DNA of 64,000 nucleotides from an uncultured Myxococcales bacterium. GTDB lineage: Bacteria; Myxococcota_A; Polyangia; Fen-1088. Position numbers and translations under genes: made by a program. The stretch lies in the NCBI GenBank assembly GCA_964540815.1, contig CAZIOH010000007.1:43867-107866 (forward strand), given 5' to 3'. Shown here one piece after another: positions 26,047-29,036 of the stretch (position 1 is its first letter; each line of letters opens with the position of its first letter). Under the pieces are notes generated by a model. That model saw nothing but the letters and a program-made list of their open reading frames with translations. It searched no databases and was not told the DNA's origin.

Positions 26047-27111
26047 TCAGTACTCGCGGTTGACCATATAATCGAGGAGTGACCGGATGAAATCGAGGTC
26101 GTGACCCGGCGGGGCATCCGAGTACGCGTTCTCGAACTCTTGACGCGCGCCGTTGGCAAAAGCGTGGGCAGCCTGACGCGCGTACTCGAGGCTTCCGTAG
26201 GATCGCAAGAGTTCGTAGATCCAGGCCACCTCACGCTGGAGTCGCTGTGCTCTCGGCTTTGACAAGAACGTCGTCAGTCGCCGCCGTTCCTGTGCGCTGC
26301 TGGTCCTGAAAAGGTGTGCGAGGATAAGCGTCCGCTTGCCTTCGAACAAATCCCCGCCAATTTCCTTTCCGTAGGTACTTCGGTCGCCGGAGAGGTTCAG
26401 GATGTCGTCTTGAATCTGGAACGCAGTACCGAGAAAATAGCCAAATCGATTGAAGCCATCGAGATCGGTCCGGTCGGGCTCAGCGATGAGGGCGCCAATT
26501 CGCGCAGGATGAATAAAGCTGTACCAACCGGTCTTCTTCAGCACCATGAGCAAGTAGTCTTCTTCGGTGGTATGGCAATCGTTGTCGCGAATCCAACCAA
26601 GCTCCATCGCTTGGCCTTCGATTGTTTCGATCGACATGTGATCGAACTCGTCGAAAACCCTGGTCGCGAGTGAGGGGCCCAAGAGCGAGATATTCTGTCT
26701 CAGCAGCCGAACGCTCATCGCGTTCATCGCGTCGCCCACGTTGAGCGCCACGGGTACGCCGTATTGACGGTGCATCGTGGGACCATTCCGCCGGTATTCG
26801 CTTTCGTCCTCGATGTCGTCATGCACCAAGAAAGAGTTATGCAGAAGCTCGATGGCCGCGGCGGATGGCAGGGCACGCTCCTCGCCGCCTCCGAATGCCC
26901 GGCACGTCGCGAGACACAACGCTGGTCGAATGCCTTTGCCTTCGCGTGAGAGCTGGTCGGTGATCAGATCGTAGAGATGTCTCTTCGGCTCGCGGTCCGG
27001 GATGACGCTCAAGATCAGTGGCGTTACCTTTTGCCGATAGGACGCTAGTTGTCGCTCCAAGGTTCCACGATCGACGGAGAGGTCCGGCATAGCCGCGGCA
27101 TACGACGTCAT
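26047..27111 (-). CDS. Polyprenyl diphosphate synthase (trans-isoprenyl diphosphate synthase, GGPPS/FPPS-like)
   Basis: First and second aspartate-rich motifs FLVHDDIED and FQIQDDILN. ATG overlaps the upstream gene's stop (TGATG at 27109-27113). Confidence 0.85.
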   Translation of the reverse strand: MTSYAAAMPDLSVDRGTLERQLASYRQKVTPLILSVIPDREPKRHLYDLITDQLSREGKGIRPALCLATCRAFGGGEERALPSAAAIELLHNSFLVHDDIEDESEYRRNGPTMHRQYGVPVALNVGDAMNAMSVRLLRQNISLLGPSLATRVFDEFDHMSIETIEGQAMELGWIRDNDCHTTEEDYLLMVLKKTGWYSFIHPARIGALIAEPDRTDLDGFNRFGYFLGTAFQIQDDILNLSGDRSTYGKEIGGDLFEGKRTLILAHLFRTSSAQERRRLTTFLSKPRAQRLQREVAWIYELLRSYGSLEYARQAAHAFANGARQEFENAYSDAPPGHDLDFIRSLLDYMVNREY

Positions 27112-29036
27112 CAGCGCCCACTGACGATTCTGAGCCGACGCAAACCCTCGTCGCTCGACGCGCGGGCTTCGAGGGCGGCCTCTTCGATGTTGTCCTCACG
27201 AGCGCCCGGCATCGCCGCGGCATTCGCCCCCCGGGGAGCGCCGATGGCGCCTGGCCAGGCGCGTCCAACCACCTGCTGCAGGGCCCGCGTGGCGGGCAAC
27301 CCGAGCGCGGACATCGGTAGCGCCACCTCGCTGCCGTCCCAGGGGAGGCCCTTCCGATAGCGAGTTCGGTCATGAGCCCTGAATGGCGCGAAGACCGCAG
27401 GCTCGTGAAGGTTCCAGATCTCGCACCTCTCTTCCCGGGATCCACAAGCGTTCAGAATCCCGTTGACCGCCCGCCGGGCAGCTTCGTTGGCCGCCTCCAT
27501 CGTAGCGAGATCCGTGAAAGTACGGACGTAGTCCGACGCCATGAAAAGATTCGGAATCCGGGTCACCGCCTCGGGTCGAAGGCGCCACGTGTCGACGTAG
27601 TTGACCAGAAGGGGCTCGAGATTGGTGTCGACACGAGAAGTGAGGCGATTTGCATCCGCGTCGGCGTCTATCAGCCCCGGATCGAGGAACCACGAGTGGA
27701 GCTGATCGTCTCGCAGGAGCTCGTCGCTAAAATTCATGGACTTCTTGAGTTGCGCCCAGGTCTCGAGGGCAATCTCGTTCCGGGAGCATATCTGGGCCTC
27801 CTTTCCATTAGAGCCCGCGACGTCCCAATCGGAGATATCGACCGATATCAGCCCCCTGACCAGCCCGTCGCCGCGCTTCGAGATGTCGAAATTCTTCCAA
27901 AACTGCGGTTGCGAGATGGACGTCAGCGCCCAAGGCGAGTCCACGTGGATGACGTGACCTCTAGCTACGCGGACATCCACCGTGAGATAGTACTGGATCC
28001 CGATCATCCACTCGACGTATTCGGTGAGGGCGTGAAGGTTAGCCAGGGACGGATCCGCGGCGAGGAGCTCAGGAGAGATCAGCTCGGCCATTCGCTCGAC
28101 CGGCAGTGCGGCGACAAAGTAGTCCCCCGTGACCTCCCGGAGGGTGTTGCGGACCGCCACGGTCACGCTCTGTACACGACCGCGTTCGCAGCGAATGGTG
28201 CGCACGTCGGAGTCGAAGTGATAGACGAGACCTTGAGCACGAAGATGGCTCAGCCACGGATCGATCCAGACCTCGTTGGTGGGACCATTCAGCACCCTGT
28301 CAGCCGCGACGCCGGGGAGGAGTATGTCGAAGACGATCTGCACGAAGATCGAACCAATCGTCTTGGCGCTGGCTCGACGAGCCTTGGCGGCTACCAGCGA
28401 ACGGGTGATGCCGTTGCCAAAATACATTCGGTAGGCAGGCGATCGGGAGTCGGCCTCGATGAAGTCCCACCAGTTGGTTCGCTCGTATTCGACGAGTCGG
28501 CGCTCCTCGCAAGTAGTGAGGAACTGCCAGATCTTTGCCGCGAAGAACACGGCGTCATCGAGGGGTACGCCGACCTTCCCGGAGAGCTCCGCCACGATGG
28601 CGAAGACTGCGACCTTCAAATCGGCGGGACGTTCCGGGAACACCGCTGGCAGATCAAACGATGATCTATCAGACGGAGCGATCCTGAGCTCTCCCGTGTC
28701 GACAAGGTTGTCTGCGACCGTGCCGGCTGTGCCAAACGGGATCTCCTTCATCGTCTCGATGATGTGCCGATAGAATCCGGGGAAGAACCGGAACCCGTGT
28801 TCGCCCGGCAGCGATGGACCCTGCGGTGCGACGAGACTCGCCCTCGTCTCCGGCACGCTAAAAGTGGAGCGCACGAGCGATGGCCGAGCGGCAGCGAGAC
28901 TGCGTGCCTTGCCTCCCGGAATGGACTTTCGCTCGTACACCTCCACGTCAAAGCCCCGACGGACGAGCTCGTGAGCGGCGCTCAGACCACCGATTCCACC
29001 GCCCAGTATCACGACCTTCTTGCGCGCACCCGCCAT
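27111..29036 (-). CDS. FAD-dependent oxidoreductase, amine-oxidase/phytoene-desaturase-like, with an acidic linker and a C-terminal RLRIVSGR tail
   Basis: N-terminal Rossmann KKVVILGGGIGGLSAAHEL...YERKSIPGGK. Start placed at MAGARKK (29036); the 29102 alternative overlaps the upstream gene. C-terminus ...EEAALEARASSDEGLRRLRIVSGR. Confidence 0.7.
   Translation of the reverse strand: MAGARKKVVILGGGIGGLSAAHELVRRGFDVEVYERKSIPGGKARSLAAARPSLVRSTFSVPETRASLVAPQGPSLPGEHGFRFFPGFYRHIIETMKEIPFGTAGTVADNLVDTGELRIAPSDRSSFDLPAVFPERPADLKVAVFAIVAELSGKVGVPLDDAVFFAAKIWQFLTTCEERRLVEYERTNWWDFIEADSRSPAYRMYFGNGITRSLVAAKARRASAKTIGSIFVQIVFDILLPGVAADRVLNGPTNEVWIDPWLSHLRAQGLVYHFDSDVRTIRCERGRVQSVTVAVRNTLREVTGDYFVAALPVERMAELISPELLAADPSLANLHALTEYVEWMIGIQYYLTVDVRVARGHVIHVDSPWALTSISQPQFWKNFDISKRGDGLVRGLISVDISDWDVAGSNGKEAQICSRNEIALETWAQLKKSMNFSDELLRDDQLHSWFLDPGLIDADADANRLTSRVDTNLEPLLVNYVDTWRLRPEAVTRIPNLFMASDYVRTFTDLATMEAANEAARRAVNGILNACGSREERCEIWNLHEPAVFAPFRAHDRTRYRKGLPWDGSEVALPMSALGLPATRALQQVVGRAWPGAIGAPRGANAAAMPGAREDNIEEAALEARASSDEGLRRLRIVSGR

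What the first reader, a model, noticed from the sequence alone, without database searches (positions are those of the whole stretch)
27111..29036. Flavoenzyme ends in an encapsulin targeting-peptide-like tail (…DEGLRRLRIVSGR)
The amine-oxidase/phytoene-desaturase-like FAD protein ends in a low-complexity acidic/Ala/Ser linker (EEAALEARASSDEG). An extreme C-terminal LRRLRIVSGR follows. Its pattern R-L-x-(I/V)-x-S-x-R mirrors family-1 targeting peptides such as ...RLTVGSLRR and ...SLNIGSLK (peptides quoted from memory). This makes the flavoenzyme a candidate secondary cargo. Together with the overlapping polyprenyl synthase it could perform isoprenoid oxidation inside the compartment. The immediately upstream 244-aa protein lacks a C-terminal motif but has an N-terminal SNIGESLIGIAARI segment.
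Basis: inference. Interest (0 to 1): 0.75.

Follow-up and report, generated by a model that had tools for sequence, protein, structure and literature searches.

The report
New cargo-loading tail for an encapsulin
A phytoene-desaturase-like flavoenzyme ends in a short conserved peptide that, by comparison with hundreds of related gene clusters, most likely loads it into an unusual protein shell (encapsulin) devoted to isoprenoid enzymes, a cargo type and loading signal I found described nowhere.

Summary
The minus-strand gene 29036-27111 encodes a 641-aa FAD enzyme ending ...EARASSDEGLRRLRIVSGR, with a one-base stop/start overlap onto a polyprenyl synthase. A Linocin_M18 shell gene lies two genes upstream (three, counting an uncertain 130-aa ORF).

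The tail is under selection. In 115 of 120 homologues a hypervariable Pro/Ala/Ser/Gly linker precedes a near-invariant block AAxARxSSDxGLRRLRI, kept through synonymous codon changes.

All 30 flavoenzyme loci with the shell carry a 50-170-aa C-terminal extension. It either ends in a hydrophobic-Arg-hydrophobic-hydrophobic core or is fused in frame to the polyprenyl synthase. The 49 loci without a shell lack this extension.

Two unrelated proteins in operons of the same shell clade carry the same core at their C-termini: an acetoacetate-decarboxylase-like enzyme and one cupin. One locus appears to be just shell plus that decarboxylase-like protein. This points to a shared cargo-loading peptide.

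"Secondary cargo" undersells it: in the window it is the only tail-bearing protein.

Binding to the shell is inferred, not shown. I rate it a new variant of a known kind. Confidence is about 0.72.

The parts
27111..29036 (-). Gene for the 641-aa FAD enzyme of the phytoene-desaturase / amine-oxidase fold (stop codon included)
   Evidence: Translation. Pfam Amino_oxidase, NAD_binding_8 and DAO. NCBIfam best hit HpnE at 71 bits, far below its cutoff of 283. Best Foldseek match of the AF2 model is rice phytoene desaturase 5mog, TM 0.71, on a model with mean pLDDT of only 62.6.
27180..27335 (-). Variable linker, residues 568-619, following the end of the catalytic domain (GLPWD, 563-567)
   Evidence: Entropy above 3 bits per column and a Pro/Ala/Ser/Gly-rich composition in 115 homologues. 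pLDDT below 50 from residue 579 onward.
27123..27179 (-). Conserved C-terminal block AALEARASSDEGLRRLRIV (residues 620-638): the proposed cargo-loading peptide in its Polyangiales-type form
   Evidence: Near-invariant A-A-x-A-R-x-S-S-D-x-G-L-R-R-L-R-I in 115 of 120 homologues. Synonymous codon variation within it.
27123..27146 (-). Core GLRRLRIV (residues 631-638). The cross-phylum consensus is (R/K/G)-x-(V/L/I)-(R/H/E)-(I/F/L)-(V/I/L/T)
   Evidence: Tails RIRITQKA, GRVRILPQ, GKVRILSR, GRVELIPH, NVRFVER and GGVRILP in other phyla. The same core ends the acetoacetate-decarboxylase-like proteins and one cupin.
27114..27122 (-). Last three residues SGR: variable, not part of the conserved motif
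   Evidence: Positions after RLRI(V) have entropy of 2.4-3.2 bits and variable length.
26047..27111 (-). Short-chain-type polyprenyl diphosphate synthase (354 aa), translationally coupled to the flavoenzyme gene
   Evidence: Pfam polyprenyl_synt E 4e-63. NCBIfam best hits all below cutoff: family-2 cargo polyprenyl transferase 198 bits, IdsA 195, GGPP synthase 189. TGATG overlap. Fused in frame to the flavoenzyme in 17 related loci.
29050..29940 (-). Two-domain protein: a conserved ~120-aa N-terminal domain with no Pfam match, plus a DUF3237 domain
   Evidence: Pfam DUF3237 E 7.5e-23 over residues 145-290. The N-domain is 55-85% identical in relatives and always sits in this operon.
30363..31292 (-). 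Encapsulin shell protein (309 aa), a divergent family-1-type clade
   Evidence: Pfam Linocin_M18 72 bits against a cutoff of 24.3. NCBIfam encap_f1 76 bits against a cutoff of 100. AF2 pLDDT 89.6 with an N-terminal helix at 12-29. All top-50 Foldseek PDB matches are encapsulin shells, nearly all labelled type 1 / family 1 or well-known family-1 systems, at TM 0.69-0.80 and 15-22% identity.
31331..32065 (-). 244-aa protein directly upstream of the shell: a disordered N-terminal region with conserved short motifs and a C-terminal beta-rich domain. Role unknown; possibly a scaffold or a second loading module
   Evidence: No Pfam or NCBIfam hit. Homologues occur upstream of the shell in many loci. 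In other lineages the module is fused N-terminally to the acetoacetate-decarboxylase-like enzyme, which then has no tail.
32069..33034 (-). DUF3237 plus truncated (bacterial-like) globin fusion protein, first gene of the apparent operon
   Evidence: Pfam DUF3237 E 1.5e-12 and Bac_globin E 6.6e-12.

Best explanation
The last ~20 residues of the flavoenzyme (AALEARASSDEGLRRLRIV, core L-R-R-L-R-I-V) are a cargo-loading peptide held on a ~50-residue disordered linker.

Proposed mechanism: during shell assembly the peptide binds, probably in an extended conformation, to the luminal face of the divergent family-1-type encapsulin encoded two genes upstream (three, counting an uncertain 130-aa ORF). 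The phytoene-desaturase-like enzyme is thereby enclosed. The polyprenyl synthase, which is translationally coupled here and covalently fused elsewhere, would be enclosed with it. The compartment would then make and oxidise or desaturate an isoprenoid, with the DUF3237 proteins as likely cofactor-free tailoring enzymes.

Shown: the tail is selected at protein level; it is restricted to shell-linked orthologues; the same core motif ends unrelated proteins of the same shell's operons; the shell has the family-1 fold with its N-terminal helix.

Inferred: physical binding to the shell, the binding site, co-encapsulation of the synthase, and the chemistry.
For: 1. A near-invariant block follows a hypervariable linker in 115 of 120 homologues. 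Codons in it vary synonymously.
2. Flavoenzyme-centred sample of 80 genomes: all 30 loci with the shell also have DUF3237 (absent only in L052) and the polyprenyl synthase, and the flavoenzyme carries a 50-170-aa extension. It ends in the core motif in 17 loci and is fused to the synthase in 12; one more (L028) is a frameshifted fused type. The 49 loci without a shell within the stored flanks end 0-50 aa after GLPWD, or in a membrane domain.
3. Shell-linked flavoenzymes cluster together. L033, a close relative without a shell, has no tail.
4. Shell-centred sample of 80 metagenome loci: the shell is followed by DUF3237, the flavoenzyme and the synthase in nearly all loci where enough DNA is present. 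The exceptions are L149 and L151 (acetoacetate-decarboxylase-like gene instead) and L158 (no hit in about 800 nt).
5. An unrelated acetoacetate-decarboxylase-like enzyme in operons of the same shell clade ends in a short linker plus L(R/K)VRI..., or GRVVLIPK. Loci L136, L164 and L166 have flavoenzyme ...GKVRILSR and decarboxylase-like ...L(R/K)VR(I/L)... side by side. A cupin in L164 ends ...PRVRIQLGRVP.
6. In L162 the plus-strand operon is shell plus the decarboxylase-like protein with the tail. There is no 244-aa module, synthase or flavoenzyme on that 7.8-kb contig. Its shell is 39% identical to the window's.
7. The tail is absent where the decarboxylase-like domain is fused to the 244-aa-type module, and where the flavoenzyme is fused to the synthase. 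So it is carried only by free-standing proteins.
8. The shell model is confident and matches solved family-1 shells, including the N-terminal helix that forms the peptide-binding site in those shells (the site assignment is from established knowledge, e.g. PMC8346489).
9. AF2 does not dock the tail onto its own enzyme (pLDDT 28-38), although the whole model is weak.
Against: - No binding test was possible.
- The motif lacks the G-S-L core of known family-1 peptides.
- Fused flavoenzyme-synthase proteins have no terminal motif. A candidate internal remnant (DP..(R/K)GSAYVP.P) is only weakly conserved.
- L132 has the shell but a tail without the motif.
- Three shell-less orthologues (L061, L069, L070) end ...LRRV(I/V)T(K/R)S. 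These are short amphipathic extensions in a distant cluster.
- Absence of a shell was checked only within 10 kb or less, not genome-wide.
- Phylogenetic non-independence inflates the co-occurrence counts.
- The loss of the tail when the decarboxylase-like domain is fused to the 244-aa module also fits a model in which the tail docks on that module.
Confidence: 0.72

Rival explanations
1. The tail is a docking peptide for another protein of the operon rather than for the shell. The partner would be the 244-aa module acting as a scaffold, or the polyprenyl synthase. Encapsulation, if it occurs, would be indirect.
For: The flavoenzyme loses its terminal motif when fused to the synthase. The decarboxylase-like enzyme loses its tail when fused to the 244-aa-type module. 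Both are what a fusion replacing a non-covalent contact would look like. The 244-aa module is widespread in these operons, either free or fused. Free-type and fused-type shells share the same conserved positions, so nothing in the shell tracks tail presence.
Against: L162 has shell plus a tailed decarboxylase-like protein with no 244-aa module, synthase or flavoenzyme on the contig. The synthase cannot be the common partner of the flavoenzyme, the decarboxylase-like protein and the cupin in loci such as L149, where no synthase follows. Several free-type loci (L006, L008, L010, L013) show no detectable 244-aa homologue. L165 has a 249-aa protein of the 244-aa-module type (inferred from its MPYF...PIPGLPSR start and ...GVYSGL...HAVL...VQV end; not tested by BLAST) together with a tailed decarboxylase-like protein, while its flavoenzyme is fused.
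Confidence: 0.14
2. The tail is a remnant membrane- or lipid-binding element, like the C-terminal amphipathic helices of MinD or FtsA. It would be inherited from membrane-associated ancestors of this flavoenzyme family.
For: Shell-less orthologues end in short hydrophobic/basic helices (for example LFFETIQRILIFLKRIF) or in a ~250-aa multi-pass membrane domain (L066, L073). L061, L069 and L070 end ...LRRVITKS. The substrate is presumably a lipophilic isoprenoid.
Against: The conserved core is only 4-7 residues, Arg-rich, lacks aromatic residues and is often followed by Pro (RILPQ, HIIPSP, ELIPH). That suits an extended bound peptide better than an amphipathic helix. It occurs on soluble-type decarboxylase-like and cupin proteins too. 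It tracks the shell, not the enzyme family.
Confidence: 0.05
3. The tail is a conserved regulatory element unrelated to targeting, such as an autoinhibitory peptide or a degradation tag. Its co-occurrence with the shell would reflect shared ancestry of the whole operon.
For: All shell-linked flavoenzymes form one similarity cluster, so co-occurrence could be largely one inheritance event. No direct binding evidence exists.
Against: Convergent presence of the same core on three unrelated protein families in these operons. Systematic loss on fusion. No confident intramolecular docking in AF2, though that model is weak.
Confidence: 0.05

Closest known systems
Family-1 (classical) encapsulin systems with C-terminal targeting peptides, e.g. 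DyP and ferritin-like cargos, and M. xanthus EncA with cargos EncB/C/D
   Same: Shell of the HK97 fold with an N-terminal helix. Cargo carries a short conserved peptide at the extreme C-terminus after a flexible linker. Several different cargo proteins of one shell share the peptide, as EncB/C/D do (PMC8346489, PMC12746231).
   Different: The peptide is Arg-rich (GLRRLRIV; generally hydrophobic-R-hydrophobic-hydrophobic) and lacks the L-x-I/V-G-S-L core. The shell scores below NCBI's family-1 equivalog cutoff, 76 against 100 bits. The cargo genes lie downstream of the shell. The cargos are isoprenoid or other metabolic enzymes, not peroxidases or iron-storage proteins.
Family-2B encapsulin terpenoid systems (2-methylisoborneol synthase, geosmin synthase, polyprenyl transferase cargos)
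   Same: Isoprenoid enzymes, including a polyprenyl synthase, are associated with a protein shell. There is a link to cyclic-nucleotide signalling (PMC11550324, PMC8346489). The window's synthase has its best NCBIfam score on the family-2 cargo polyprenyl transferase model.
   Different: The shell is not family 2: the only hits are Linocin_M18 and encap_f1, and it has no cNMP-binding insertion. Family-2 cargos use long disordered terminal domains, not a short C-terminal peptide. The synthase score of 198 bits is far below that model's cutoff of 450 and about equal to generic GGPP synthase models. Here the cNMP link is through neighbouring cyclase and kinase genes.
'Minor' family-1 operons of the 2021 encapsulin census (Andreas & Giessen, PMC8346489)
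   Same: The census lists the Variovorax sp. HW608 shell VAR608DRAFT_4554 as 'Minor'. A homologue of this system's decarboxylase-like/COG1470 protein is VAR608DRAFT_4550, four locus tags away. So at least one shell of this system was probably already catalogued.
   Different: [quoted passage not shown] S1 legend). Neither DUF3237 nor PF11578 occurs in the main text (DUF3237) or in the held part of the supplements (both terms). The cargo set and peptide described here are not in that paper or in the 2025 review PMC12746231.
Plant/cyanobacterial-type phytoene desaturase (PDS), zeta-carotene desaturase and HpnE hydroxysqualene dehydroxylase
   Same: FAD Rossmann motif and overall fold. The best structural match is 5mog and the best NCBIfam hit is HpnE. 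An isoprenoid context fits these enzymes.
   Different: Only 16% identity to 5mog. All NCBIfam scores are far below cutoffs. No phytoene or squalene synthase lies in the operon. The substrate is unknown.

Membership tests
Family-1 encapsulin shell (for the shell that the tail is proposed to address) | HK97-type fold with A-domain, P-domain, E-loop and an N-terminal helix | tested here: met
   AF2 model with pLDDT 89.6 and a helix at 12-29. All top-50 Foldseek PDB matches are encapsulin shells, nearly all labelled type 1 / family 1 or well-known family-1 systems, at TM 0.69-0.80.
Family-1 encapsulin shell | Sequence-model membership (Pfam PF04454; NCBIfam NF041155 equivalog) | tested here: inconclusive
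   Pfam 72 bits, above the cutoff of 24.3. NCBIfam 76 bits, below the cutoff of 100. Best PDB sequence match has E 3e-9.
Family-1 encapsulin shell | Self-assembly into an icosahedral compartment | not testable with these tools
   Needs expression plus electron microscopy.
Family-1 C-terminal targeting (cargo-loading) peptide | Short conserved peptide at the extreme C-terminus, preceded by a variable flexible linker | tested here: met
   Entropy profile of 115 homologues. Tail pLDDT below 40.
Family-1 C-terminal targeting (cargo-loading) peptide | Present on cargo only where the shell is encoded | tested here: met
   30 of 30 shell-linked loci have the extension, fusion or tail. 0 of 49 loci without a shell have the linker-plus-motif tail. 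Limits: flanks of 10 kb or less, and three look-alike endings (L061, L069, L070).
Family-1 C-terminal targeting (cargo-loading) peptide | Shared by different cargo proteins of the same shell | tested here: met
   The decarboxylase-like family and one cupin carry (R/K)VRI-type ends in operons of the same shell clade.
Family-1 C-terminal targeting (cargo-loading) peptide | Consensus L-x-(I/V)-G-S-L followed by basic residues | tested here: not met
There is no (L/T)-x-(I/V)-G-S-L anywhere in window ORFs.
Family-1 C-terminal targeting (cargo-loading) peptide | Binds the luminal pocket formed by the N-helix and P-domain of the shell protomer | not testable with these tools
No multimer tool is available.
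Family-2 encapsulin cargo polyprenyl transferase (NF041169) | Score above the model cutoff, and association with a family-2 shell | tested here: not met
   198 bits against a cutoff of 450. The shell hits only the family-1 models.
Phytoene desaturase / HpnE / CrtI-type isoprenoid desaturases (for the flavoenzyme) | Score above the family cutoffs; known substrate-forming partner (phytoene or squalene synthase) in the cluster | tested here: not met
   HpnE 71 against 283 bits; PDS 33.5 against 569; ZDS 40 against 622. No PF00494-type synthase among neighbouring ORFs. Fold-level resemblance only.

The most novel reading that the evidence does not exclude
This would be a phylogenetically widespread, so far undescribed encapsulin subfamily. 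It is seen in loci labelled Polyangiales, Alphaproteobacteria, Variovorax (Betaproteobacteria), cyanobacteria, actinobacteria, Nitrospiraceae and Chthonomonadaceae. It would have its own cargo-loading code, a C-terminal hydrophobic-Arg-hydrophobic-hydrophobic peptide. It would enclose a multi-enzyme set: a phytoene-desaturase-like flavoenzyme with a polyprenyl synthase, an acetoacetate-decarboxylase-like enzyme, a cupin, and DUF3237 proteins. That would make it the first family-1-type shell acting as an isoprenoid-metabolising nanoreactor, possibly under cyclic-nucleotide control through the adjacent cyclase/AAA16/TPR and cNMP-binding kinase genes.
Probability: 0.5. Interest if true: 0.85.

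Novelty: new variant of a known kind. Interest (0 to 1): 0.78.

Why it matters
Known family-1 encapsulins hold peroxidases and iron-storage proteins and use one well-known peptide (LxIGSL-type).

If this tail is a loading peptide, it would have three consequences:
- It defines a second, orthogonal peptide code for a family-1-type shell, which is useful for engineering.
- It assigns cargos to shells that the 2021 census could only file as 'Minor' with no cargo.
- It shows that isoprenoid chemistry is compartmentalised not only in family-2B shells (2-methylisoborneol, geosmin) but also in a separate, widespread shell lineage.

It also gives a handle on three enzyme families of unknown function: the COG3349-type flavoenzyme, the operon-specific DUF3237 proteins and the acetoacetate-decarboxylase-like protein. 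Cultured hosts are available for experiments, including Methylocapsa acidiphila B2, Variovorax, Bradyrhizobium, Ruegeria and Geodermatophilus sabuli.

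Tried and rejected
No binding model exists.
2. The metagenome scan with the 12-sequence shell alignment A2 failed because it had no conserved stretch. I repeated it with 5 sequences (A3).
3. I looked for the motif inside the linkers of fused flavoenzyme-synthase proteins. A DP..(R/K)GSAYVP.P segment sits at the expected position but is only weakly conserved. I keep it as a possibility only.
4. I compared conserved positions of shells from free-tail and fused-type loci, hoping to see a site that tracks the tail. 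The same positions are conserved in both, which is uninformative.
5. I tested whether the 244-aa protein's RLRQQAHE repeats or its SNIGESL segment resemble the tail. The repeats are a conserved amphipathic-helix motif with no real similarity to the tail. SNIGESL is not conserved.
6. The polyprenyl synthase C-terminus (...DYMVNREY) looked motif-like. The operon synthases all end in this pattern and an unrelated synthase (L077) ends similarly (...AEGIVERYS), so I take it to be the last helix of the fold (inference). Rejected.
7. Five apparent exceptions without the motif appear among the top 120 homologues. P0064 has an in-frame TAA in the linker with an intact tail behind it. P0085, P0104 and P0110 carry variant ends (GLEFVR, GLTFLR, ALRFVP). 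P0104 sits next to a shell. P0022 ends GLSRLRLVR.
8. A constraint from the ribosome-binding site of the downstream gene is rejected as the cause of conservation. Codons vary synonymously, and the tail persists where the synthase is not downstream (L136).
9. I compared the 130-aa ORF with the C-terminal extension of the long shell P0146 and found no similarity.
10. Two literature searches using min_terms were unspecific.

Full report
**1. What is in the window**

Genes 36254-26047 on the minus strand form a compact array, in this order:
- an adenylate/guanylate-cyclase + AAA_16 + TPR regulator (33018-36254);
- a DUF3237 + truncated-globin fusion (32069-33034);
- a 244-aa protein with no family match (31331-32065);
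- an encapsulin shell gene (30363-31292; Pfam Linocin_M18, 72 bits);
- a 130-aa ORF of uncertain reality (29948-30340);
- a protein of up to 296 aa with an unassigned N-terminal domain plus DUF3237 (29050-29940);
- the flavoenzyme of the finding (29036-27111);
- a polyprenyl synthase (27111-26047).

The synthase's ATG shares one base with the flavoenzyme's TGA.

**2. Is the tail more than chance?**

The 120 best database homologues (60-100% identical) nearly all have the same end. I anchored 115 of them on the motif. The 30 or so residues before the block are hypervariable: entropy is above 3 bits, and the composition is rich in Pro, Ala, Ser and Gly.

The block itself, A-A-x-A-R-x-S-S-D-x-G-L-R-R-L-R-I, is 88-100% conserved at most positions. 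The 1-5 residues after it are variable again. Within the GLRRLRI codons, Leu and Arg are encoded by four to five different codons across loci. Selection therefore acts on the peptide, not on DNA or on a ribosome-binding site for the next gene.

**3.

A scan of one genome per species with a flavoenzyme alignment gave 80 loci with flanks of up to 10 kb. Thirty contain a homologue of the window's shell. These 30 also contain DUF3237 (absent only in L052) and the polyprenyl synthase. Their record titles name Polyangiales/Polyangiaceae, Alphaproteobacteria (Methylocapsa acidiphila B2, Ruegeria, Bradyrhizobium), Variovorax, cyanobacteria (Acaryochloris, a Prochlorococcaceae member), actinobacteria (Geodermatophilus, Pseudonocardiaceae, Acidimicrobiia), Nitrospiraceae and Chthonomonadaceae.

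In all 30, the flavoenzyme continues 50-170 residues past the end of the catalytic domain (GLPWD):
- In 17 loci it ends in a short motif: RLRIV, RIRITQKA, RVIITQKG, GRVRILPQ, RGRIVPL, GKVHIIPSP, GRVELIPH, NVRFVER or PGRLRIVQKP.
- In 12 loci it runs in frame into the polyprenyl synthase.
- One locus is a frameshifted version of the fused type.

The 49 loci without a shell hit come from Bacteroidota, Paenibacillus/Bacillus, Chloroflexi, Thermoleophilia and others. They lack DUF3237 and, except for an unrelated polyprenyl synthase 7 kb upstream in L077, the synthase. Their flavoenzymes stop 0-50 residues after GLPWD, typically in a short hydrophobic/basic helix. Three carry a C-terminal membrane domain instead.

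In a distance clustering of the catalytic cores, the shell-linked enzymes group together and the fused ones form one subgroup. L033, a shell-less relative inside the group, has no tail.

There are caveats. L061, L069 and L070 (no shell in the flanks, distant cluster) end ...LRRV(I/V)T(K/R)S, which resembles the motif. L132 has the shell but no motif. Absence of a shell was only checked within the flanks.

**4. The view from the shell**

A metagenome scan with a shell alignment gave 80 further loci. Where enough DNA lies downstream of the shell, DUF3237, the flavoenzyme and the synthase are found in nearly all loci. The exceptions are L149 and L151, where a different gene follows the shell (section 5), and L158, where about 800 nt downstream gave no hit. 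This scan added the tail variants GGVRILPFDTP, GGVRIVPPAVP, GKVRILSR, PLRILSE and LRRVRITPAP.

One apparent exception among close homologues (P0064, 600 aa) turned out to carry an in-frame TAA, at a position where L001 has Gln. An intact ...SSDAGLRRLRIVRSGP follows in the same frame.

**5. Independent support: unrelated proteins with the same end**

In L149 the gene after the shell is not the flavoenzyme. It is a 410-aa protein with a weak acetoacetate-decarboxylase-like match, ending ...GVPEPSPNRQRVRIVGPTTAVRLLRK.

Its 120 best homologues fall into two forms:
- Stand-alone proteins of about 390-400 aa. These almost always end in a short linker plus SPRxL(R/K)VRI(K/R)xPxAxVVLRPKR(W). A variant ends in SRGRVVLIPK, close to the flavoenzyme tails GRVELIPH and GRVEIIPN of L015 and L052.
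- Proteins of about 650-720 aa. Here the domain follows an N-terminal module of the 244-aa type, and the protein stops right after the domain with no tail.

Loci L136, L164 and L166 hold a flavoenzyme ending ...GKVRILSR and a decarboxylase-like protein ending ...L(R/K)VR(I/L)... in one operon. In L164 a Cupin_7 protein ends ...PRVRIQLGRVP.

In L162, the shell (39% identical to the window's) overlaps by four bases with the gene for a tailed decarboxylase-like protein. Nothing else of the system lies on that 7.8-kb contig, apart from a divergently oriented shell-like fragment.

Several unrelated proteins sharing one short C-terminal peptide, with the shell as the only common partner, is the signature of family-1 cargo loading. 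M. xanthus EncB/C/D is the known example (PMC12746231). In the window itself only the flavoenzyme has such an end. No canonical LxIGSL motif is present, and no decarboxylase-like or cupin gene is present.

**6. The shell**

An AF2 model built on 65 homologues is confident (pLDDT 89.6) and has an N-terminal helix at residues 12-29. All 50 best PDB matches are encapsulin shells, nearly all labelled type 1 / family 1 or well-known family-1 systems, at TM 0.69-0.80 and 15-22% identity. NCBI's family-1 equivalog model scores 76 bits, below its cutoff of 100. The shell is thus a divergent clade of the family-1 type. It is not family 2: it has no cNMP-binding insertion and hits no family-2 model.

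**7. The enzyme**

The AF2 model of the flavoenzyme is mediocre (pLDDT 62.6, 27 sequences). Its tail (residues 579-641) has pLDDT 28-38, so no intramolecular docking is predicted. The best structural match is rice phytoene desaturase (5mog, TM 0.71), followed by amine oxidases. All curated family models score far below their cutoffs; HpnE is best at 71 against 283 bits.

The synthase scores like short-chain (C15-C20) synthases. No phytoene or squalene synthase is nearby. Characterised DUF3237 proteins are cofactor-free enzymes: the PhnH hydroalkoxylase acting on a prenyl alkene (PMC11969235) and the PhcF/PhcG decarboxylases (PMC9942872). The substrate and product therefore remain inferred: an isoprenoid made by the synthase and then oxidised or desaturated by the flavoenzyme.

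**8. Mechanism and rivals**

I commit to the tail being a cargo-loading peptide for this shell (about 0.72). The synthase would ride along through fusion or association.

The main rival (about 0.14) is docking onto another operon protein. The tail disappears when the flavoenzyme is fused to the synthase, and when the decarboxylase-like enzyme is fused to the 244-aa module. L162 argues against this rival, as do loci without a detectable 244-aa module.

A membrane-binding remnant (about 0.05) is suggested by the hydrophobic ends of shell-less orthologues. It fits poorly with a 4-7-residue, Arg-rich, Pro-followed motif that also occurs on unrelated soluble-type proteins. A purely regulatory tail (about 0.05) does not explain that convergence.

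**9. Known or new?**

No paper in the searchable library combines encapsulin with DUF3237, phytoene desaturase or amine oxidase in this sense. The 2021 census describes 90 unassigned family-1 systems and states that 'Minor' operons have no clearly defined cargo or targeting peptide.

The census lists the Variovorax sp. HW608 shell VAR608DRAFT_4554 as 'Minor'. A homologue of this system's decarboxylase-like/COG1470 protein is VAR608DRAFT_4550. So at least one shell of this system was probably seen but not interpreted. The 2025 review of encapsulin catalysis lists no such cargo. The library is incomplete, so a publication elsewhere cannot be excluded.

Verdict: a new variant of a known kind, namely a family-1-type encapsulin with new cargo classes and a new loading peptide. 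It rests on comparative evidence only.

Noticed in passing
L016-L018, L020, L021, L027, L029, L030, L035, L038, L047, L049, L128, L129, L134, L140, L145, L146, L165: The flavoenzyme and the polyprenyl synthase are one open reading frame (about 985-1050 aa) in a coherent subgroup of shell-linked loci. This is a Rosetta-stone fusion of the two genes that overlap by one base in the window. The fusion linker begins with a well-conserved ~40-residue helical segment (SLMQVAAHALRGASPLLDQVRPLLEQVAPF).
   Followed up: partly
L149:1481-2713; L136:5311-6756; L162:1835-3034; L164:10001-11200; L165:10001-11221; L166:8938-10137; P0241-P0360: An acetoacetate-decarboxylase-like protein family (Pfam ADC only weakly, E 7e-5) is a second component of these shell operons. 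It is either free with a C-terminal L(R/K)VRI...VVLRPKRW tail, or fused behind a 244-aa/COG1470-type module without a tail. It is absent from the window.
   Followed up: partly
L164:11292-11840: A Cupin_7 protein directly after the decarboxylase-like gene ends ...PHPRVRIQLGRVP, a third protein family with the (R/K)VRI end. This is a single observation.
   Followed up: no
window 31331-32065 (-) and homologues in L001-L004, L081-L138: The 244-aa protein family has a modular N-terminal region. It contains an N-terminal helix motif (D)LLxQAS(A/V)(I/L)xRE, a GR(I/V)CP(V/I)TGA motif, and one or two copies of an amphipathic D.xRLRQQAHEL(V/I)E.LL motif. A conserved beta-rich C-terminal domain follows (weak NEW3/NPCBM_assoc similarity in the L015 fusion). 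It could be a scaffold or a second loading module.
   Followed up: partly
window 29050-29940 (-), residues 1-125: The DUF3237 protein of the operon has a ~120-aa N-terminal domain with no Pfam match. It is better conserved among relatives (55-85% identity) than the DUF3237 domain itself. In L004 it is a separate ORF.
   Followed up: partly
window 33018-36254 (-) and 24436-25791 (-); also L161-L166: Cyclic-nucleotide signalling genes flank the operon. A cyclase + AAA_16 + TPR protein lies upstream and a Ser/Thr kinase with a cNMP-binding domain lies downstream. SAM/cyclase/AAA_16 regulators sit next to the shell operon in L162-L166 as well, and a kinase-cNMP gene in L161. This parallels the cNMP-binding domains of family-2B shells.
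   Followed up: no
window 29948-30340 (-): A 130-aa ORF with no family match lies in the 420-bp gap between the shell and the DUF3237 gene. It is visibly less G+C-rich. Weak homologues exist only in the closest relatives (L082, L083, L085). It may be a lineage-specific small protein or not a gene at all.
   Followed up: partly
L161:9650-10010: An in-frame TAA, at a position where L001 has Gln, interrupts the linker of a close flavoenzyme homologue. The conserved tail follows intact in the same frame. This could be a recent nonsense mutation, an assembly error (the record name, contig_197913_np1212, suggests a nanopore assembly), or read-through.
   Followed up: partly
L066:9992-12391, L073:9908-12397, L036:9944-12148: Shell-less orthologues of the flavoenzyme are fused to a C-terminal hydrophobic, apparently multi-pass membrane domain (~250 aa in L066 and L073, ~170 aa in L036). 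Most other shell-less orthologues end in a short hydrophobic/basic helix. The ancestral enzyme was therefore probably membrane-associated.
   Followed up: no
L162:3-632 (-): A second, divergently oriented shell-like gene fragment (MSDTRTGPGWSAAQWDLVNKAV...GPFACVL) lies next to the shell of the minimal operon. This raises the possibility of two-shell-protein systems in this clade.
   Followed up: no
window 26000-46000: G+C is about 0.60-0.65 here against 0.67-0.72 in the flanks. The stretch also holds a PAAR + Peptidase_M91 protein (43166-44167), which looks like a secreted effector.
   Followed up: no
L035:1503-2948 and L001:14984-16819: Other proteins on the shell's strand end in motif-like sequences (...RRVARIRITPVDD..., ...AAGKRVRVVRDRMGAPE). 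They may be further cargos or chance: the background rate of the loose pattern is about 1% of ORFs.
   Followed up: no
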